DNA from: a virus
DNA: 64,000 nt
Reading direction: 5' to 3' (one strand)
IMG/VR virus record: IMGVR_UViG_3300017782_000002
Coordinates: 1-64,000 of that record
This document shows, piece after piece, positions 5,036-19,426 of the stretch (its first letter is position 1; the number at the start of each line of letters is the position of its first letter). The notes under the pieces were generated by a model, which was not told the DNA's origin, made no database searches, and saw only the letters and a program-made list of their open reading frames with translations. The position numbers were made by a program, and so were the translations under genes.

Positions 5036-6682
<1,647 letters not shown>

Positions 6683-7868: not shown

Positions 7869-8012
7869 TCATTTATTACTGCTCTTGTACTTTCTTTCAT
7901 TTTCTTCAAATTTTTTTAAATTATTTACAAGGTCATTATTATCTCCTATAAGTAAATGATTAGTTAAGGATATAGCAATGATAAGCGCTATAATTATTAA
8001 AAGGTAAATCAT
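7869..8012 (-). CDS. 47-aa single-TM membrane peptide (not in ORF track)
   Basis: MIYLLIIIALIIAISLTNHLLIGDNNDLVNNLKKFEENERKYKSSNK; ATGA overlap with the 8009 stop. Confidence 0.65.
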   Translation of the reverse strand: MIYLLIIIALIIAISLTNHLLIGDNNDLVNNLKKFEENERKYKSSNK

Positions 8013-8650
8013 ATCTTAGCTTCCCCAAACATTGGATCCTGTGCTTGTGCATCAGCTGCAGCTTCCTTTTGTTTTCTTTTTTCTTCACAACTAAGACATT
8101 TACCCGTATCATCAGGTAAGATAGGCATAGGTGGGGCTTTTTGTAAATTAGGATTAAACATTACACCACTCTTTATGGTGTTATGATGCATCATCAATGC
8201 TTTCTGGCGTTGTAACTCCTCTATTTCAAAGCCTATATGATTCTTAGCTTTAACTAAATCCTCAATATGTTTATCTATAGTTTCTAATCCTACTTCTTTT
8301 TTCTTACCTGCACGAAGTATGTAAGAACAAACATTACCTATGTTGTAAGATAACTGAAAGTCTTCAATAATTTTACGTGCTTCATAGCCAAATGTTTTTC
8401 CTATATAATAACTAGGTGTAGGTGTCTTTTCATAATTAGGTTTATCTGTCATTTTTCTTTTAGGTTTTGTGTATTCTCCAAAGATTTCAGCTTGGTTACC
8501 ATACATGGCCTTATCAGCTATTTCATGTAAAGAATACGGTTTATTAAATTCCAAACCTTCAGGCACAGACATCTTTACTTGATTGTGCCCGTAAGGTAGG
8601 TTTCTTGTTGTGTCCCAATAATGCTCACTATAATTGCTGTCTTTTGTCAT
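8009..8650 (-). CDS. DUF3310 (T7 gp1.7/SaV-like) domain protein
   Basis: TPSYYIG...EARKIIEDFQLSYNIGNVCSYILRAGKK...IEDLVKAKNHIGFEIE. Confidence 0.7.
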   Translation of the reverse strand: MTKDSNYSEHYWDTTRNLPYGHNQVKMSVPEGLEFNKPYSLHEIADKAMYGNQAEIFGEYTKPKRKMTDKPNYEKTPTPSYYIGKTFGYEARKIIEDFQLSYNIGNVCSYILRAGKKKEVGLETIDKHIEDLVKAKNHIGFEIEELQRQKALMMHHNTIKSGVMFNPNLQKAPPMPILPDDTGKCLSCEEKRKQKEAAADAQAQDPMFGEAKI

Positions 8651-9520: not shown

Positions 9521-11431
9521 TTAAAACAAAGATAATTGATTACAATTTACATTAAGAATATTGTTTATCTCTTTTTCAATTGCTTGCAGATAATACTTCT
9601 CATTTATGTTGTAATCTTCCCATTTCCTTGAGTCAACCTTATTAAATACAGTTTGTATCCATTTACCGGCTTCTAACTGTATCTCTCTACCATCATTTTT
9701 GTTACGCTTAATAAGCTTAACACCCTTGTCTGAGATGTAATACCTGTTAATCTTTTGTAGATTCTCTTGGATATATTCACCTTTCTCTAGGCTGTCAGCT
9801 ACTACTTGCCAACCGCTGTTAGTCTTAGATCCTATACAATAGTCTAATATGTTTTTATTAGTCTTAAGATAGTCTTCAGGTAACATGTCATTAACAAAGT
9901 ATTCATAGATTGCTTTAGGTATAACTAATTTAGATTTATTCTTATGCAAAGCAAGATTCTTAAACTCAAACCTACCTTTACATTTAGCTTTATCATCTAG
10001 ATTAATTGCAATGTAATTGTTGACGTCTGCTAGTATAAGCTTCTTGTATTCATCATGCTCAAGATTAAAGTTAGTTATATCTTCCCACTGTTTACATACT
10101 TCCATGTACTTTTCTTTATACTTCTTAGGTATGATTGTCTCTATACCATCAGTATTCTGAAGCAAGGGGATAGCATCCGGTATAGCCTCCATGATCATCT
10201 CATAAAGCATCATAAGTGTGAGTTGACCATTAATTGTTATACGCATGGTAAACTCAGGGTCATATAGAAAAGAATTCTTATCATTAGATAAACCATATGT
10301 ACTATTTAATATAATTTTATATACATAGTTCATAGGATTACTCTTAGGTATTTTCTTTCTTTCCGTAAAGAACCACTCATACAGTGTACAAAACTGTTTA
10401 CTTGGTAAATGCGCAGGAGACCATCCATTCTTAATAGCTAAGTTAGGATAGAAACTAGTAACATCTGAAGACATTATAATATTATCTTCATCAGCTTCAT
10501 ATACTCCAGGCTGATTAGCACCGTGTGCACCACCTAAACCAAAGTGTGTCTTAACACCTTTATAAACAACTGAATGCTTAAAAGCTCCTTTAATATTTTG
10601 TGGGTCCAACTCTACAGTTTTGAATCTAGCTAAAAGATTATTAAACTCCGGTGTAACAAATGCAACACAAGGTAATATAATCCTATCAAGCTTTATAACT
10701 TTCCTAAATGTTCTAAGTTTTTTAAGTTCACGTTTTTCTATGTTCAGTTCTTTACTTAAATAGAAACTAAACAACTCCTTAGATATACGTGGCTCAGAAG
10801 CATTCATAAGATTTATATTATACTCTTTAGTCAGATTCATCCTCAATGCTATAAGATCCTTAGATCTATTATAGATTTCATGAGTTGCGTCTACATCATT
10901 AATACAATACTCAACAATAGTATTTAACTCCTCTTGCGTATTTATATCTGCTTCATGATGTATAGGCATATCTAGAATGTTATCCCAATCCATAGTATAT
11001 TCAATCCACTTAAGACTAGAGCGCTTAGCCATATTGTCCCAGTGATTAAGTTTAAATACATCTATCTGCTTGATTAACATTTGCCATTCAGGAAACTCAG
11101 AAAATTCTCTATTGTTTGATCTTCTAATAGCTTCTTGTGCGTATCCATATATTTCTTCAGTGATACCGTCAGGGTCCATACCTTCCCATTCTTTATAATG
11201 CTTAAGAATATTATGTGTTACCTGTGAATCAAAGCCAATACCATTAAATGAGATGTGGTATTCATTATTTTTTATATTTTCTTTTAAGAACTTGATTAGC
11301 TCTACAGAATCATCTTGAAGTTTATGAATTATAAAAGTCTTATAAGTATTTGTTTTATAATGTTTAAATACACCAACAAAACAGTTCTTAAGAGTCTCAT
11401 AATCCATTACCCAGTGATTCATGACGGCCAT
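9521..11431 (-). CDS. polB: Family B DNA polymerase (crAss-like)
   Basis: Exo I DYE, motif A SSDVTSFYPN, motif B YKIILNSTYG, motif C QNTDGI, DVNNYIA. Confidence 0.92.
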   Translation of the reverse strand: MAVMNHWVMDYETLKNCFVGVFKHYKTNTYKTFIIHKLQDDSVELIKFLKENIKNNEYHISFNGIGFDSQVTHNILKHYKEWEGMDPDGITEEIYGYAQEAIRRSNNREFSEFPEWQMLIKQIDVFKLNHWDNMAKRSSLKWIEYTMDWDNILDMPIHHEADINTQEELNTIVEYCINDVDATHEIYNRSKDLIALRMNLTKEYNINLMNASEPRISKELFSFYLSKELNIEKRELKKLRTFRKVIKLDRIILPCVAFVTPEFNNLLARFKTVELDPQNIKGAFKHSVVYKGVKTHFGLGGAHGANQPGVYEADEDNIIMSSDVTSFYPNLAIKNGWSPAHLPSKQFCTLYEWFFTERKKIPKSNPMNYVYKIILNSTYGLSNDKNSFLYDPEFTMRITINGQLTLMMLYEMIMEAIPDAIPLLQNTDGIETIIPKKYKEKYMEVCKQWEDITNFNLEHDEYKKLILADVNNYIAINLDDKAKCKGRFEFKNLALHKNKSKLVIPKAIYEYFVNDMLPEDYLKTNKNILDYCIGSKTNSGWQVVADSLEKGEYIQENLQKINRYYISDKGVKLIKRNKNDGREIQLEAGKWIQTVFNKVDSRKWEDYNINEKYYLQAIEKEINNILNVNCNQLSLF

Positions 11432-11452: not shown

Positions 11453-12316
11453 TTAAAATATATATCTGATTTTATTCCAAGGGATTTTCTTTTTGTGCAG
11501 TCTTTTAAACTGATCTATGTATTCCCTTTTTAATTCATAATTATACCTTATGTTTTTCCCACCATACTGTGACTGTTTAGTCTCTTGTATATTAGGTGTC
11601 CATAAAGTTAGTTCTGTTTCTGGATGTTTTTCTAAGTTAACAACATGCTTACTAAAATTATGTGTTAAGAATATTACTTCTGCTAACACTTCTTTTTTGT
11701 AACCGTGGTCAACATAATCATTCATCATGTCAAACAAAAGCTCATAGTCTTCTAACCATCCATCATAAACTATAACTGGACTGTAGTTGACATGTACATC
11801 ATAACCAGCATCTATAAATGCACTGATAGCTTTTATTCTATCAATAATTTTAGATGTGTTTGGCTCATGTATATCTGCCATTTTTTGTGGCATTAAACTA
11901 AATCTTATACGTATTTTACCTTCAGGGTCAAACGTGGTAAGATTAGGGTTAACATACTTAGTAGCGAAACTACCCATAGCAACTGGGTGCGTCCTAAAAA
12001 ATTCAAATATTCTTTCCCAGTCATGATGCTTTGCATGCAAACAAAAGTCTTCATTACAACTAATATCATATGTTGTAAATTCAGGATGTGTTTGATTAGG
12101 CTTATCTACTGGTGTAAAATATGCATGATTATTTATTTCTGTAAGTATATCTCCAGTGTTTTTTGCAACACTTAAACCTTTTGGTTTGTGACGTTTCATA
12201 TAACAATATGAACAATCATATAAACAACCGTGACCGAAGCTAGGTGATATAAAATCTGTACTCCTACCTGATGGTCTTATGGTGAAAGTTTTTCTATTTA
12301 CTTTTTTTATTAGCAT
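11453..12316 (-). CDS. splB: Spore photoproduct lyase-like radical SAM protein
   Basis: GCLYDCSYCYM (CxxxCxxC) plus SCNEDF, FATKYVN, RIRFSL and VNYSPVI segments like the SplB family. Confidence 0.8.
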   Translation of the reverse strand: MLIKKVNRKTFTIRPSGRSTDFISPSFGHGCLYDCSYCYMKRHKPKGLSVAKNTGDILTEINNHAYFTPVDKPNQTHPEFTTYDISCNEDFCLHAKHHDWERIFEFFRTHPVAMGSFATKYVNPNLTTFDPEGKIRIRFSLMPQKMADIHEPNTSKIIDRIKAISAFIDAGYDVHVNYSPVIVYDGWLEDYELLFDMMNDYVDHGYKKEVLAEVIFLTHNFSKHVVNLEKHPETELTLWTPNIQETKQSQYGGKNIRYNYELKREYIDQFKRLHKKKIPWNKIRYIF

Positions 12317-12333
12317 ATGATAAAATTGGACCC

Positions 12334-12360
12334 AAAAAAAGGGGACAACAAGGCCCCCTT
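12334..12360 (-). terminator. Intrinsic terminator
   Basis: On - strand AGGGGG-CCTTGTTGT-CCCCT followed by a T run. Confidence 0.7.
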
Positions 12361-12385: not shown

Positions 12386-12838
12386 CTAAGTGACTATTTC
12401 TAAGTTAGTAGCTTTTTCAGCTGGCATTGGATTACCTGCTGGTGTTACTTCTGACTCAAGGTGTGTTGTATAATCATATGTATCTGCATTAATAGCAAAT
12501 GCATTGATTAAAGTTTTTACCTCTTCTAAGTCATTAACGTAATACTCTTGATAAGTATCCATCATGACTCTTTGTTCTTTAATTTCTTTTCCATTAGGTC
12601 TTTTACCTAGTTTAACTGTAACTTGATCACCGTTGTCATCTAATTTAGGAACCATATGGTAAGAAGGTTTACTTAATTTAGATATGATTGCAAGTATTTT
12701 GCTACTTGGATCAAAGATTGCCTCTACATAAGGGCATTCTGTATTTATAGGGATAAGTTTAAATGTTTTATAAGGTCCCCAGTTAGAGGATACTAAAATC
12801 ATTGACTTTTCAATATTCATTTCTTTCTTTTTTGACAT
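12386..12838 (-). CDS. Hypothetical protein
   Basis: 150-aa ORF with a plausible start. Confidence 0.7.
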   Translation of the reverse strand: MSKKKEMNIEKSMILVSSNWGPYKTFKLIPINTECPYVEAIFDPSSKILAIISKLSKPSYHMVPKLDDNGDQVTVKLGKRPNGKEIKEQRVMMDTYQEYYVNDLEEVKTLINAFAINADTYDYTTHLESEVTPAGNPMPAEKATNLEIVT

Positions 12839-16672: not shown

Positions 16673-16933
16673 TTAAACTATTTTTGCTAGGATATGTGAC
16701 TCTTCTAGTATAATAAGATCATTGTCTTCAAAGTTAATCTTCTGACCCGCATACTCTCCGTATACTACAGTGTCTCCAACTTCAACAACATCACTACTAG
16801 TTTCTATAACTAATCCCATTAATGGTTTCTTTTGATTTGCGTCAGGAATAATAAGTCCTTGGGCTGTCTTTTCTTCAGCCTTTATAGTTGTTATAATAAT
16901 TCTCTTTCCTACAGGAATAATTTGTTTAGCCAT
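16673..16933 (-). CDS. groES: Co-chaperonin GroES (start at MAKQIIP)
   Basis: PVGKRIII, mobile loop EEKTAQGLIIP, VEVGDTVVYGEYAG and LEESHILAKI motifs. Confidence 0.93.
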   Translation of the reverse strand: MAKQIIPVGKRIIITTIKAEEKTAQGLIIPDANQKKPLMGLVIETSSDVVEVGDTVVYGEYAGQKINFEDNDLIILEESHILAKIV

Positions 16934-16953
16934 AATTTTTGTGTTGTAAATAC

Positions 16954-16973
16954 GGGGAGACATAAGCCTCCCC
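16954..16973 (-). terminator. Hairpin between the MoxR gene and groES
   Basis: GGGAGGC-TTAT-GTCTCCC on - strand with a weak U tract; may be a processing or stability hairpin. Confidence 0.45.
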
Positions 16974-16987
16974 ACATTCAGGTTAAT

Positions 16988-18250
16988 TTATTTTACAGTC
17001 ATCTTAATGATCTGCGGGTTCATCATCATCTTGTTAAATTTCTGCTTGTTACCACTGTAAATAGTTCTTACAATAAGATATTGCAGGTCATCAGCAAAAT
17101 GATTACTAGTACATAACTCAATCAATCTATCAGTAATCTTCTTATTGATTGTGTTTTCTGTAGAATATACTACAGCATAGTTAGCTAATCTTGTAGCTAA
17201 TGCAGATGCAATATCAGCACGATATGCATCATCTTTACCAATTGCTGAAGTTAGCAAGCCTGTTACATATGCATCATTCTCATTAGTTAAAAGATCCTTT
17301 GGTGTAGGTAACTTATCTAACTTGTTGTTAATGAACATAGTAAACATAGAAGAAAATTCATCTCCTACTGAACCTTCACCAATCATTTGGATTAGCGCCA
17401 AGCTATCAGAAAAACTTTCTATACCAGAAATAGCATTAAAGAATGTAGATATAGATCTAGCATTAGTCTCTTGCGTAACTAGTTCAGGATTTAACAATAA
17501 GAAGTTAATACATCTTGTGTCAATGCCTTCTGCTTCTGCCCACTTAGCCCACACATCTATATCAAACTTAAGATTAGCTGTAATATAACGTGTTTTCTGT
17601 GCTGCATCTACAGAATTTACCATGTAGTCACCATTATCCGGGTTAGCTGTTAAGATAATATGCCAGTCTTTAGGTAAAGCCCATGAGATATAAGTCTGAC
17701 GGTCAACTAATTCCATAACTGCCTGAATAAATCTGACATCTGCACGGTTCCAGTCATCTAACAATAGTATACCGCCTGCTTTTTTATCAGCAATCCATTC
17801 TGGTGCACAATAAGACATTCTGTTCTTACCGGTCATTTTCCAACCACTCTTAAGATAATCAGATACAGCTAACTCGTCAACCCACTGACCAACTTTCTTA
17901 GTAACAGGTGCAGTCATTTTAGCTAGATCTTCTGATGCTGCTAATCTAGAGTTATAATTTAGATCATTACTCTTAGAAGGTATTTGTTTCTCTCTATACA
18001 TTTGAAACTGTCTAACAGGAAAACCTACAAGGTCACCTAACTCTTCTATCTGTGCTAAGTTTAACTTAACAAAATCTAATTCATGCTTCTTAGCCATATC
18101 CATAATACTAGTAGTTTTACCTATACCGGATTCACCTACTACTTCAATTGCCACAGGCTTCTTGCCTTGGTCTTGTAAAAATCTGTTGTTTGTAATGATG
18201 TGATTTACAAATCCATCTAGTTCCTCAATGTTTAAATTTACTTGAGCCAT
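16988..18250 (-). CDS. MoxR-type AAA+ ATPase
   Basis: Walker A GESGIGKTT, LAQIEELGDLVGFP, Walker B ILLLDDWNRAD, sensor LTANP, DAAQKTR. Confidence 0.85.
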   Translation of the reverse strand: MAQVNLNIEELDGFVNHIITNNRFLQDQGKKPVAIEVVGESGIGKTTSIMDMAKKHELDFVKLNLAQIEELGDLVGFPVRQFQMYREKQIPSKSNDLNYNSRLAASEDLAKMTAPVTKKVGQWVDELAVSDYLKSGWKMTGKNRMSYCAPEWIADKKAGGILLLDDWNRADVRFIQAVMELVDRQTYISWALPKDWHIILTANPDNGDYMVNSVDAAQKTRYITANLKFDIDVWAKWAEAEGIDTRCINFLLLNPELVTQETNARSISTFFNAISGIESFSDSLALIQMIGEGSVGDEFSSMFTMFINNKLDKLPTPKDLLTNENDAYVTGLLTSAIGKDDAYRADIASALATRLANYAVVYSTENTINKKITDRLIELCTSNHFADDLQYLIVRTIYSGNKQKFNKMMMNPQIIKMTVK

Positions 18251-18271: not shown

Positions 18272-19426
18272 TTAATTAATTTGAATTTTTTGTCCTGGTA
18301 ACTCTTCATTGATGCTACATCTTGAACTGTGTACCCACAAGGCATTTTTTGGACAGTCTTCTGGTGGATATGCCTCACCATCTGTTAAATATATAAGAGC
18401 AGTATAATCTTTTTCATTATAATGATCAATGACAGGTTGGAAGCTTGTGCCACCCCTGCCTTTTATGTCCCAATCCTTTTTAGGATTGAATATCTCAACT
18501 GAATTAATTTCTGTATCACATTGTACTACAGTAATTTGATGTCCAGTTTTGTGCATATGGCACAACTCATTCATAAATTCTTGTAGTTCACTGTTAGATA
18601 CTGAGCCAGATGTATCTACACCTACACAAATATGATTCTTAAACTTAATCTTAAGGCCAGGATTACCTGTATACCTTTTATTATATTTACGTCTAAGCTT
18701 CTTTGTATAAGAAATAGATGAATTACCAACAAATCTTCTTAAGTATTGTTTCCACGGGAATGCCGGTGGTTCAATAGTCATAAGTCTTCTGATAGTATCA
18801 GCAAGTTCTCCAGGTACATTACCTTGTCTCTTGACTGTTTGCTCAGCAGTTTCTTTAAGTTGGTGCTCTATCTGTTTCTGTACTAGTTTCTTGTCAGCTT
18901 CAGATAACTCATCAAACTCATCCCATGTAGGATGGTCATATGCACTGTTACCATTCATTTGATTAAGTATATTATCTAGTGCGCTACAGTTACCCTGTTG
19001 CTGGGCTTTTTCTAGCTTCTCATAATAATATGTAGTACCTGCTCTTGAGTCTAGATTTAGATCAGCAAACATTTCCATAGTTATACCACCTTCAGGTAGG
19101 CAATCACTTTCAATGTATTGATTAATTTCTAAATCTGCAGCTATATTAAATAGCTTATGACATTTAAACCGGTCTCTCATTATTAAGTGACCAAATGATA
19201 CATGCAGCAGCTCGTGCTTTAGTAATCCTATTTGTTGTTTCTCATTAAGACCCTCAAAGAATTCAGGGTTTACGGCTAACTGTACGTTAATCCCATGCTT
19301 ACTAACACCTGCTGTAGGTATAGTTTTAATATATTTTTTGTTAAGTCCTATAAGAAAGTAACCGTAAAAAGGTTCTTTCAGCATCAACGACTTACTTGCT
19401 TTGGCTAATTGTTCTATTGCTTTCAT
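18272..19426 (-). CDS. Metallopeptidase-vWA protein (DUF2201-like)
   Basis: HELLH (HExxH), FNIAADLEINQ, MIDAS VDTSGSVS, GRGGTSF and YLTDGE. Confidence 0.88.
   Translation of the reverse strand: MKAIEQLAKASKSLMLKEPFYGYFLIGLNKKYIKTIPTAGVSKHGINVQLAVNPEFFEGLNEKQQIGLLKHELLHVSFGHLIMRDRFKCHKLFNIAADLEINQYIESDCLPEGGITMEMFADLNLDSRAGTTYYYEKLEKAQQQGNCSALDNILNQMNGNSAYDHPTWDEFDELSEADKKLVQKQIEHQLKETAEQTVKRQGNVPGELADTIRRLMTIEPPAFPWKQYLRRFVGNSSISYTKKLRRKYNKRYTGNPGLKIKFKNHICVGVDTSGSVSNSELQEFMNELCHMHKTGHQITVVQCDTEINSVEIFNPKKDWDIKGRGGTSFQPVIDHYNEKDYTALIYLTDGEAYPPEDCPKNALWVHSSRCSINEELPGQKIQIN

What the first reader, a model, noticed from the sequence alone, without database searches (positions are those of the whole stretch)
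11453..12316. Phage-encoded spore photoproduct lyase-like radical SAM enzyme next to PolB
CxxxCxxC and the other SplB-like segments are present, and the gene lies directly upstream of polB. Established: SplB repairs the spore photoproduct that forms in dehydrated, protein-bound A-like DNA under UV. Inference: densely packed capsid DNA could form similar lesions that the phage repairs after entry, or the enzyme could make a modified base.
Basis: partly seen in the sequence, partly recalled or inferred. Interest (0 to 1): 0.7.

Follow-up and report, generated by a model that had tools for sequence, protein, structure and literature searches.

The report
Shortened spore-photoproduct-lyase gene in marine phage
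A complete 120-kb ocean phage of non-sporulating bacteria carries an intact, strongly conserved, shortened relative of the enzyme that repairs UV-damaged spore DNA, which suggests that sunlit virus particles may build up a "spore-type" DNA lesion nobody has looked for there.

Summary
ORF 11453-12316 (-) encodes a 287-aa radical SAM protein with CLYDCSYC. It ends 21 nt before the DNA polymerase gene.

It is a true SplB-fold protein. VIA-align gives Z 30.9 and 2.0 Å over 277 residues against SplB residues 61-341. The next radical SAM enzyme scores Z 14.5.

It keeps SplB's cluster cysteines, the Tyr-Tyr relay, the H-donor Cys and the residues that grip the damaged thymine. It lacks the first 60 residues (the N-terminal domain) and the two phosphate-binding residues. 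It falls below both curated NCBIfam cut-offs, so it is a shortened variant, not an SplB orthologue.

The family is very large (over 4,000 clusters at 90% identity, at least 592 IMG/VR contigs), under strong purifying selection, mostly phage-borne and absent from cultured phages.

The polymerase adjacency is incidental. The gene fills a cargo slot and sits elsewhere, or is absent, in close relatives.

No hypermodification partner genes exist in the genome. Light-independent reversal of spore-photoproduct-like thymine dimers is therefore the best reading (about 0.5). Nobody has shown that such lesions form in capsids.

This scan has flagged the same family on other DNA about 18 times.

The parts
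11453..12316 (-). SPL-like radical SAM gene, 287 aa ('mini-SPL', type 1, canonical CX3CX2C)
   Evidence: ORF. PF20903 at 102.6 bits. TIGR03886 at 322.9 bits, covering profile positions 62-346 only. Fold Z 30.9 against SplB residues 61-341. dN/dS about 0.09.
12203..12226 (-). Codons for C31-L-Y-D-C35-S-Y37-C38: the [4Fe-4S]/SAM cluster motif with the first relay Tyr. Y39 follows directly.
   Evidence: Read from the sequence. Aligns with SplB C90/C94/Y96/C97/Y98. 100% conserved in 120 close homologues.
12056..12058 (-). Codon for Cys87, which aligns with the SplB hydrogen-atom donor Cys140/141 (DISCNED against AACTSD)
   Evidence: Alignment. Role of this Cys from PMC3467042. Cys in 120 of 120 close homologues and 33 of 63 diverse ones. 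Also kept in type 2.
11543..11587 (-). Residues 244-258: beta-hairpin with Tyr251 at its tip. This corresponds to the SplB lesion-flipping hairpin (R304/Y305).
   Evidence: Model strands E244-248 and E254-258. Y251 aligns with Y305. Role from PMC3467042.
12326..12360 (-). Terminator-like hairpin (8 bp, 5 GC) plus T-run and TTTTTGGGTCCAA, lying between orf150 and the SPL-like gene. It marks the upstream edge of a cargo-insertion slot.
   Evidence: Terminator scan. The same hairpin and tail follow orf150 in all backbone relatives. After it comes either about 20 nt and then PolB, small variable ORFs, or the SPL-like gene.
9521..11431 (-). DNA polymerase (crAss-type, putative family B), immediately downstream. 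Adjacent but not functionally linked.
   Evidence: phrog_1252 at E 1.9e-137. 36% identity to the phi14:2 polymerase. Adjacency holds in 3 of 54 SPL loci that have room for it.
12386..12838 (-). orf150, a conserved backbone gene of unknown function upstream. It is not an SPL partner and not the missing N-terminal domain.
   Evidence: No Pfam or PHROG hit. It always precedes PolB, wherever the SPL gene lies or whether it is present at all.

Best explanation
The gene encodes an active, minimal spore-photoproduct-lyase-type radical SAM enzyme. [quoted passage not shown] It is transcribed with the phage's replication genes. It most likely performs light-independent direct reversal of a methylene-bridged thymine dimer in the phage's own DNA after injection. 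That dimer would be 5-thyminyl-5,6-dihydrothymine (the spore photoproduct) or a very similar lesion.

Inferred mechanism, by homology to SplB:
1. C31/C35/C38 hold a [4Fe-4S] cluster that reductively cleaves SAM. K120 and S140 bind the SAM carboxylate.
2. The 5'-deoxyadenosyl radical abstracts H from C6 of the dihydrothymine, which is held by R138, E213 and Y285.
3. The bridge fragments.
4. Cys87 gives a hydrogen atom to the thymine allyl radical.
5. Y39/Y37 relay the radical back to regenerate SAM.
6. The Tyr251 hairpin flips the lesion out of the helix.

Reducing power must come from the host, because the phage encodes no flavodoxin.

Shown here: the fold, residue conservation, purifying selection, phage-borne distribution, lack of fixed partner genes, and dispensability. 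Inferred: the substrate, and that it arises in packaged virion DNA exposed to sunlight.
For: Fold: SplB structures are the top hits at TM 0.87-0.88 and at Z 30.7-30.9, rmsd 2.0 Å over 277 of 287 residues. Every other radical SAM enzyme scores Z 14.5 or less.

Residue map, from the alignment with roles taken from PMC3467042: C90/94/97 = C31/35/38; Y96/Y98 = Y37/Y39; C140 = C87; K174 = K120; R193 = R138; S195 = S140; E268 = E213; Y339 = Y285; Y305 = Y251; S76/S79 = S16/S19.

Conservation: these positions are 100% conserved in 120 close homologues. In 63 diverse representatives they are 84-100% conserved, against a column mean of 36%.

An alternative subfamily (type 2, CX3CX4C, only 30-36% identical) in the same phage backbone keeps the whole set. 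A decayed copy (L144) has lost most of the set together.

dN/dS is about 0.09.

The gene stands alone, with at least five different neighbour pairs inside replication modules. That fits a self-sufficient direct-reversal enzyme.

Distant members sit beside RecA, PolA and UDG in unrelated phages.

The genome has no photolyase and no T4 endoV-type gene, so this would be its only photodamage-specific function.

No modification-pathway partners were found.
Against: No experiment links any member of this clade, or of the cellular TIGR03886 family, to SP repair.

SP is known from A-form, dehydrated, SASP/Ca-DPA-loaded spore DNA and from dry films (PMC3742179). Its formation in tailed-phage capsids is unshown, and I found no paper on it.

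The two SplB residues that bind the intra-lesion phosphate are replaced: R273 by N220 and K309 by N255. The 60-residue N-terminal domain is missing.

Scores are below both curated cut-offs: TIGR04070 96 against 400, and TIGR03886 323 against 437.55.

The only characterised phage SPL-fold enzyme, M6 gp53, is a DNA-modification isomerase and not a repair enzyme (PMC8989533).

Two near-complete relatives lack the gene, so it is not essential.
Confidence: 0.5

Rival explanations
1. It is a DNA base-modification or tailoring enzyme. It would use thymine-allyl-radical chemistry to install or rearrange a thymidine hypermodification on phage DNA, as the SPL-fold isomerase gp53 of Pseudomonas phage M6 does. 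The purpose would be to evade host nucleases.
For: [quoted passage not shown] The gene lies in the replication module. R273/K309 and the N-terminal domain of SplB are lost, so substrate handling differs. Some distant members sit in accessory islands.
Against: M6 gp53 is only remotely related: hhalign probability 70% over 156 columns, no Pfam SPL hit, and no Cys at the H-donor position. The genome has no thymidylate-synthase-like hydroxymethylase, no ThyX, no ParB, no TET/JBP, no second radical SAM gene, and no homologue of M6 gp51/52/54/58 (best E 0.2). The gene has no conserved partner in 80 loci. It is missing from two near-complete relatives. The complete SplB repair-type residue set, including the H-donor Cys and the Tyr relay, is conserved.
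Confidence: 0.15
2. It is a repair or counter-defence enzyme for a different thymine adduct. Candidates are UV-induced thymine-protein crosslinks to packaged capsid or cargo proteins, inter-strand or non-adjacent SP-type bridges, or a host-inflicted thymine adduct. It would use the same radical scission but not act on the canonical intrastrand SP.
For: The thymine-base-binding residues are kept, but the two residues that bind the phosphate between the dimerised nucleotides are lost, and R257 is conserved instead. The N-terminal domain is missing, which should open the substrate side. The cellular TIGR03886 family occurs sparsely in non-sporulators, where classical SP is not expected (5 of 401 Pseudomonadota sampled). 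One homologue is fused to DUF4326, a predicted ADP-ribose-phosphate-processing domain. Macro and Acb2/Tad1-like genes lie nearby in two distant phages.
Against: No such radical repair activity is known. The fusion is a single sequence. The neighbouring anti-defence genes may only reflect shared accessory islands. The S16/S19 loop that holds the 3'-thymine in SplB is retained, which fits a two-thymine substrate.
Confidence: 0.2
3. It acts on something other than DNA (a free nucleotide, RNA or a small molecule). Or it is a non-catalytic DNA-binding remnant.
For: Radical SAM folds are versatile. A few family members have lost cluster cysteines: P0177, P0180 and P0182 and L144.
Against: This protein and all 120 close homologues keep the three cluster cysteines, the SAM contacts, the hairpin Tyr and the basic residues. 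dN/dS is about 0.09. The fold match to a DNA-lesion enzyme is twice as strong as to any other radical SAM enzyme. Genomic contexts are consistently DNA replication and recombination.
Confidence: 0.05

Closest known systems
Spore photoproduct lyase SplB (Geobacillus thermodenitrificans SPL, PDB 4FHC/4FHD/4FHF; B. subtilis SplB; NCBIfam TIGR04070)
   Same: Same fold over SplB residues 61-341 (Z 30.9, rmsd 2.0 Å). Same CX3CX2C cluster motif flanked by the two tyrosines. The H-donor Cys sits at the same position. The SAM contacts (K174, S195) and the dihydrothymine contacts (R193, E268, Y339) are the same. The 3'-thymine loop serines and the hairpin aromatic tip are kept.
   Different: Only about 22% identical. 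[quoted passage not shown] R273 is replaced by N and K309 by N. It scores 96 bits against the 400-bit TIGR04070 cut-off. It is encoded by a lytic-type crAss-like phage of non-sporulating Bacteroidota, with no splA and no SASP context.
NCBIfam TIGR03886 'spore photoproduct lyase family protein' (uncharacterised SPL relatives of non-sporulating bacteria, about 346-370 aa)
   Same: It is the best-scoring curated model (322.9 bits, E 2.4e-96). In the tree the cellular members form one clade inside the same radiation.
   Different: The match covers profile positions 62-346 only and is below the 437.55-bit cut-off. True members (P0138 at 567 bits, P0174 at 465 bits, and genomic hits above 600 bits) have the N-terminal domain and a CAMACAYC motif. 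The two I aligned have Thr (P0138) or Glu (L103 = P0174) at the H-donor position. The function of that family is also unknown.
Pseudomonas phage M6 gp53, a radical SAM isomerase of thymidine hypermodification (PMC8989533)
   Same: Phage-encoded, SPL-related radical SAM enzyme that acts on thymine-derived radicals in DNA.
   Different: 480 aa. Only remote similarity (hhalign probability 70%). No PF20903 hit. It is embedded in a fixed gene cluster (aGPT-Pplase, PLP enzyme, kinase, TS-like hydroxymethylase), and none of those genes exist in this genome.
Type-2 short phage SPL homologues with a CX3CX4C motif
   Same: Same length class and same phage backbone. Same complete SplB-like catalytic and base-binding set. 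They appear to be alternatives: 124 loci have type 1, 30 have type 2 and none has both.
   Different: 30-36% identical. There is a two-residue insertion in the cluster motif and a shorter hairpin tip. They occupy other positions in the replication module.

Membership tests
Radical SAM superfamily / Pfam PF20903 (SPL) | Score at or above the Pfam gathering threshold (27 bits), and three-Cys CX3CX2C cluster motif | tested here: met
   102.6 bits, E 2.7e-29. C31/C35/C38 read from the sequence.
SplB sensu stricto (TIGR04070) | Score at or above the curated equivalog cut-off (400 bits) | tested here: not met
   96.3 bits.
SplB sensu stricto (TIGR04070) | Overall SplB fold: partial TIM barrel plus C-terminal helices and beta-hairpin | tested here: met
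   TM 0.88. Z 30.9, rmsd 2.0 Å over 277 residues, against chain residues 61-341.
SplB sensu stricto (TIGR04070) | N-terminal alpha/beta domain (four-stranded sheet plus three helices, about residues 1-80) | tested here: not met
   The model aligns from SplB residue 61 onward. The stop-to-stop frame is only 301 aa. The whole clade is 284-287 aa. Only the last strands and the S76-S79 loop are retained.
SplB sensu stricto (TIGR04070) | Hydrogen-donor Cys (C140/C141) and Tyr relay (Y96, Y98) | tested here: met
   C87, Y37 and Y39. 120 of 120 close homologues keep them.
SplB sensu stricto (TIGR04070) | Dihydrothymine-binding residues R193, E268 and Y339, and SAM-binding K174 and S195 | tested here: met
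   R138, E213, Y285, K120 and S140.
SplB sensu stricto (TIGR04070) | Intra-lesion phosphate-binding residues R273 and K309 | tested here: not met
   N220 and N255 at the aligned positions, in 120 of 120 close homologues. Conserved R257 may compensate, but that is inference.
SplB sensu stricto (TIGR04070) | SAM-dependent conversion of 5R-SP to two thymines | not testable with these tools
   Needs anaerobic biochemistry.
SplB sensu stricto (TIGR04070) | Occurs in endospore formers, typically in an splAB operon | tested here: not met
   The genome is a 119.8-kb crAss-like phage. Neighbours are orf150 and a DNA polymerase.
TIGR03886 (SPL family protein of non-sporulators) | Full-length match at or above 437.55 bits | tested here: not met
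   322.9 bits, covering profile positions 62-346 of 346. True members score 465-631 bits over positions 1-346.
M6 gp53-type radical SAM isomerase (thymidine hypermodification) | Sequence membership, and co-occurrence with 5-hmdU synthesis, kinase, aGPT-Pplase and PLP genes | tested here: not met
   hhalign probability 70%, E 4e-5, 156 columns. No homologues of gp51/52/54/58. No TS or ThyX.
   No ParB_N match anywhere in the genome. No TET/JBP match either.

The most novel reading that the evidence does not exclude
The spore photoproduct, or a close methylene-bridged thymine dimer, is not specific to spores. On this reading it forms in the densely packed, water-poor DNA of tailed-phage capsids under sunlight. 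A large share of marine phages (crAss-like, T4-like and others) then carry a minimal, N-terminally truncated radical SAM lyase that reverses it in the dark straight after injection, before replication. That would add a third, light-independent direct-reversal pathway to marine virus UV ecology and reveal a lesion class in virions that has not been measured.
Probability: 0.35. Interest if true: 0.8.

Novelty: new variant of a known kind. Interest (0 to 1): 0.58.

Why it matters
Sunlight is held to be the main killer of marine viruses (general knowledge, not checked here). Their recovery is usually credited to host photolyases and excision repair.

A radical SAM spore-photoproduct-lyase-type gene is abundant, strongly conserved and carried mostly by phages of non-sporulating hosts. 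This implies one of two things. Either packaged phage DNA suffers a lesion so far tied to spores and dry DNA, or the SPL scaffold has a second natural substrate that is still unknown.

Either answer is directly testable with one recombinant protein and LC-MS of irradiated virions.

The protein is also the smallest natural SPL scaffold seen here. It shows that the N-terminal domain and the R273/K309 phosphate clamp are dispensable in nature, which is useful for mechanistic enzymology. It also warns against reading gene adjacency (here to polB) as functional linkage in phage cargo slots.

Tried and rejected

2. The first genome-contig scan, with the wide alignment, had no usable pattern. The retry with closer sequences found only 5 loci, mostly phage contigs binned into MAGs.

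3. Host origin: 301 genomes of the Kordia MAG's class gave no strong TIGR03886 hit apart from the MAG contig itself. 301 genomes of the order of Alkanindiges gave only Alkanindiges. I rejected 'recent host-derived auxiliary gene'. These were sampled genomes only.

4. Neighbours of cellular TIGR03886 genes (5 loci) gave no recurrent informative partner.

5. Literature: I found no paper on SP in capsids or on marine viral SPL genes in the searchable library. One search was badly posed and one timed out.

6. orf150 as a split-off N-terminal domain or partner: rejected. It is a backbone gene that stays in front of PolB wherever the SPL gene sits.

7. The L084 'long' form is an assembly artefact and the P0201 match is low-complexity noise.

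8. A Bacteroidetes-type promoter (TAnnTTTG) in the 69-nt upstream gap: none found. The sigma-70 scan was not above chance.

9. The hairpin-tail motif as a genome-wide repeat: not enriched.

10. phmmer of the polymerase against PDB sequences: no hit.

11. The first fold search attempt failed for technical reasons.

Full report
**1. Observation**

The finding's coordinates are exact. ORF 11453-12316 on the minus strand encodes 287 aa. The stop-to-stop frame is only 301 aa, so a longer N-terminus cannot be hidden upstream.

Residues 31-39 read C-L-Y-D-C-S-Y-C-Y. Family and structure matches are:
- Pfam PF20903 (SPL): 102.6 bits against a cut-off of 27.
- phmmer against PDB sequences: only spore photoproduct lyase entries, 4fhc at E 6.8e-16.

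The gene ends 21 nt before the start of a 636-aa DNA polymerase on the same strand. That polymerase matches phrog_1252 at E 1.9e-137 and is 36% identical to the Cellulophaga phage phi14:2 polymerase. Its 'family B' label is only weakly supported here: Pfam DNA_pol_B gives E 5.9e-4, and there is no PDB sequence match.

**2. Genome setting**

The window is the first 64 kb of a 119,816-bp IMG/VR virus record that CheckV rates as complete.
- The large terminase's best matches are crAss-like phages of Bacteroides, Flavobacterium and Cellulophaga.
- Portal, major capsid and tail-fibre genes are present.
- The SPL-like gene lies in a long leftward replication module. That module holds a DnaA-HTH protein, DnaB helicase, a Toprim protein, AAA_24, an SF2 helicase, a PD-(D/E)XK exonuclease, the polymerase, DUF932 and a DUF3310 kinase-like protein.

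**3. What the protein is**

The AlphaFold2 model is confident (pLDDT 94.5, pTM 0.91).
- Foldseek ranks the six SplB entries first, at TM 0.87-0.88 and E about 1e-20. The next radical SAM enzymes reach TM 0.56 or less.
- VIA-align gives Z 30.7-30.9 and rmsd 2.0 Å over 277 of 287 residues. Model residues 1-287 align with SplB residues 61-341. The runner-up, RlmN, has Z 14.5.

I mapped the residues that paper defines through the alignment, where chain numbering equals native numbering plus 27:

| SplB residue(s) | Role | Window protein |
|---|---|---|
| C90 / C94 / C97 | cluster ligands | C31 / C35 / C38 |
| Y96 / Y98 | radical relay | Y37 / Y39 |
| C140 | H-atom donor | C87 |
| K174, S195 | SAM carboxylate contacts | K120, S140 |
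| R193, E268, Y339 | dihydrothymine contacts | R138, E213, Y285 |
| S76, S79 | 3'-thymine loop | S16, S19 |
| Y305 | hairpin tip | Y251 |
| R273, K309 | intra-lesion phosphate contacts | N220, N255 (not kept) |

**4. Is this conservation meaningful?**

- In 120 close homologues, every mapped residue is invariant.
- In 63 diverse full-length representatives they are 84-100% conserved, against a 36% column average. The exception is the H-donor Cys at 52%, which is also variable among clostridial SplBs according to PMC3467042.
- A second subfamily ('type 2') is only 30-36% identical and has a CX3CX4C cluster motif. It keeps the entire set.
- One decayed copy (L144) has lost the third cluster Cys, the H-donor Cys, and the residues aligned with R193, S195 and E268, all together.
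- Pairwise dN/dS against 35 homologues has a median of 0.09 with saturated dS.

The gene is functional, and its function depends on the SplB active-site residues.

**5. Family placement**

- The best curated model is TIGR03886 ('SPL family protein' of non-sporulating bacteria), at 322.9 bits. It is not true SplB (TIGR04070, 96 bits). Both scores are below their cut-offs.
- The TIGR03886 match covers profile positions 62-346 only.
- Cellular long forms pass the cut-off at 465-631 bits over the full length. Every short form tested matches only from about position 62.
- In a quick maximum-likelihood tree, the window's protein lies in a supported clade (SH-aLRT 98) of canonical short forms from marine viral contigs. 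Type 2 forms a separate viral clade. Cellular TIGR03886 forms one tight clade within the wider radiation. The careful tree search did not finish and the root is uncertain, so I draw no direction of transfer.

**6. Distribution**

- 4,270 clusters at 90% identity match at E of 1e-5 or better, almost all 284-287 aa. They come from Tara, JGI and ENA marine data.
- No cultured phage in INPHARED has a homologue at E of 1e-5 or better. At a relaxed threshold there are only two gut 'Bacteriophage sp.' contigs at 22-24% identity.
- PHROGs has no family for it.
- Contexts I sampled:
  - Phage-borne: the window's lineage; a 340-aa long form between PolA/RecA and UDG/helicase; a 287-aa form right after RecA; and two forms in accessory islands with homing endonucleases, DUF3310, Macro and Acb2/Tad1-like genes.
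  - Cellular: P0174, and one isolate chromosome (Alkanindiges illinoisensis) where the gene is flanked by CysN/D, SmpB and CoaD.
  - Two further contigs were too short to judge.
- The Alkanindiges copy is unique among 301 sampled genomes of its order.
- Among 301 genomes of the class of a Flavobacteriaceae MAG, only that MAG's own contig scored strongly. The likely hosts therefore do not appear to be the recent source.

**7. The polB adjacency**

- Among 54 SPL-bearing viral loci with room downstream, only 3 have this PolB next to the gene. The gene occupies at least five different positions in otherwise syntenic replication modules, always co-oriented with them.
- Starting from PolB instead, 80 loci share the backbone MoxR-orf344-orf404-PDDEXK-orf191-orf150-PolB-DUF932. 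In that backbone:
  - The SPL gene lies between orf150 and PolB only in the closest relatives.
  - Copies that are 61-82% identical lie downstream of DUF932.
  - Type 2 lies after PolB, after DUF932 or before PDDEXK.
  - 22 of 67 loci have none within 6 kb.
- Of five such near-complete genomes, three carry type 2 elsewhere and two (99% and 94% complete) carry none.
- No locus has both types: 124 have type 1 and 30 have type 2.
- At the junction itself, a conserved terminator-like hairpin plus T-run follows orf150 in every relative. After it comes either about 20 nt and then PolB, small variable ORFs, or the SPL gene.

The adjacency therefore reflects a cargo-insertion slot, not functional coupling. 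The gene is a very common but dispensable accessory gene.

**8. Repair or modification?**

The documented precedent for a phage SPL-fold enzyme is M6 gp53. It is an isomerase in thymidine hypermodification and sits in a fixed cluster with an aGPT-Pplase, a PLP enzyme, a kinase and a TS-like hydroxymethylase (PMC8989533). For this phage:
- gp53 is only remotely similar (hhalign probability 70%) and has no PF20903 hit.
- None of its partners has a homologue (best E 0.2).
- The genome lacks thymidylate-synthase-like and ThyX genes, ParB, TET/JBP and any second radical SAM gene.
- It also lacks photolyase, T4 endoV-type and flavodoxin genes.

Four features fit a self-sufficient direct-reversal enzyme better than a pathway component: the solitary and mobile gene, its dispensability, the either/or pattern of two divergent subfamilies, and the full repair-type residue set.

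**9. What remains inferred**

SP is documented in A-form, dehydrated, SASP/Ca-DPA-loaded spore DNA and in dry films (PMC3742179). I found no data on SP in phage capsids.

The loss of R273/K309 and of the N-terminal domain leaves room for a related but different thymine adduct as the substrate. I could not test depth or light distribution, or expression.

My estimates are:

| Reading | Estimate |
|---|---|
| SP or SP-like dimer reversal in phage DNA | about 0.5 |
| A different thymine adduct | about 0.2 |
| DNA modification | about 0.15 |
| Non-DNA substrate or non-catalytic remnant | about 0.05 |

The remainder is unassigned.

**10. Novelty and prior notes**

Pipelines already label these proteins 'spore photoproduct lyase' or 'DNA repair photolyase'. 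I found no description of the clade in the searchable literature.

This scan has flagged the same family on other DNA. About 18 genomes hold look-alike sequences, including the type-2 form next to PolB (e1-5922794).

New in this report:
- the residue-level and structural definition of the truncated form;
- the demonstration that the PolB adjacency is a cargo-slot effect;
- the type 1 / type 2 either-or pattern;
- the decayed copy as an internal control;
- the explicit exclusion of known hypermodification partners.

I class it as a new variant of a known kind.

Noticed in passing
window 5036-6655 (-) and 16673-16975 (-): The phage encodes a full-length GroEL (phrog_5725, E 3e-156) and, about 10 kb away, a GroES-like 100-aa protein inside the MoxR/vWA cluster.
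   Followed up: no
window 16988-18250 (-) and 18272-19426 (-): A MoxR-type AAA+ ATPase (phrog_1297) sits next to a DUF2201 metallopeptidase/vWA protein. The pair is conserved across the related phage backbones (69-87% identity for MoxR).
   Followed up: partly
window 12326-12360 (-); same site in L114-L133, L165, L173: A conserved terminator-like hairpin plus TTTTTTTGG(C/G)TCTAA follows orf150 and marks a hot spot. Relatives carry different small ORFs, or nothing, between it and the PolB start.
   Followed up: partly
L133:9896-10729, L180:2913-3743, L164:8189-9019 and others: These loci carry a type-2 SPL subfamily with a CX3CX4C cluster motif (CFGGCVDTYC). It is 30-36% identical to the window's protein but keeps all SplB-like active-site residues. 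It occupies other positions in the same backbone and was never found together with type 1 in one locus.
   Followed up: partly
L144:8893-9732 (IMGVR_UViG_3300030098_004828, 245.6 kb): This is a decayed SPL-like copy. The third cluster Cys is replaced by Met and the H-donor Cys by His, and the R138, S140 and E213 equivalents are lost. The same 245-kb contig holds a second backbone copy with an intact gene (L145), so it may be a chimeric or concatenated assembly.
   Followed up: no
L086:6001-6867 (Alkanindiges illinoisensis NZ_SNTY01000058.1): A lone short-form SPL gene (288 aa, 49% identical) sits in an ordinary chromosomal neighbourhood (CysN/D, SmpB, CoaD, hydrolases). It was not found in 300 other sampled genomes of that order. 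It is possibly a phage-to-cell transfer.
   Followed up: partly
protein P0122 (451 aa, Logan contig of 45 kb): A singleton fusion of DUF4326 to an SPL domain that is 56% identical to the window's protein. DUF4326 is a predicted ADP-ribose-phosphate-processing rhodanese-phosphatase clade (PMC9503650).
   Followed up: partly
L195:4066-6677 and L194:1526-4056: In distant phages the SPL-like gene lies in accessory islands beside Acb2/Tad1-hairpin, dGTP_diPhyd_N, Macro, DUF3310 and homing-endonuclease genes.
   Followed up: no
proteins P0177, P0180, P0182 (276-292 aa): These full-length family members lack two of the three cluster cysteines. They may be non-radical derivatives of the SPL fold.
   Followed up: no
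window 8009-8650 (-): A DUF3310 / 'nucleotide kinase'-like protein (phrog_236) overlaps the end of the DUF932 gene. DUF3310 genes recur near SPL-like genes in unrelated phages (L104, L194).
   Followed up: no
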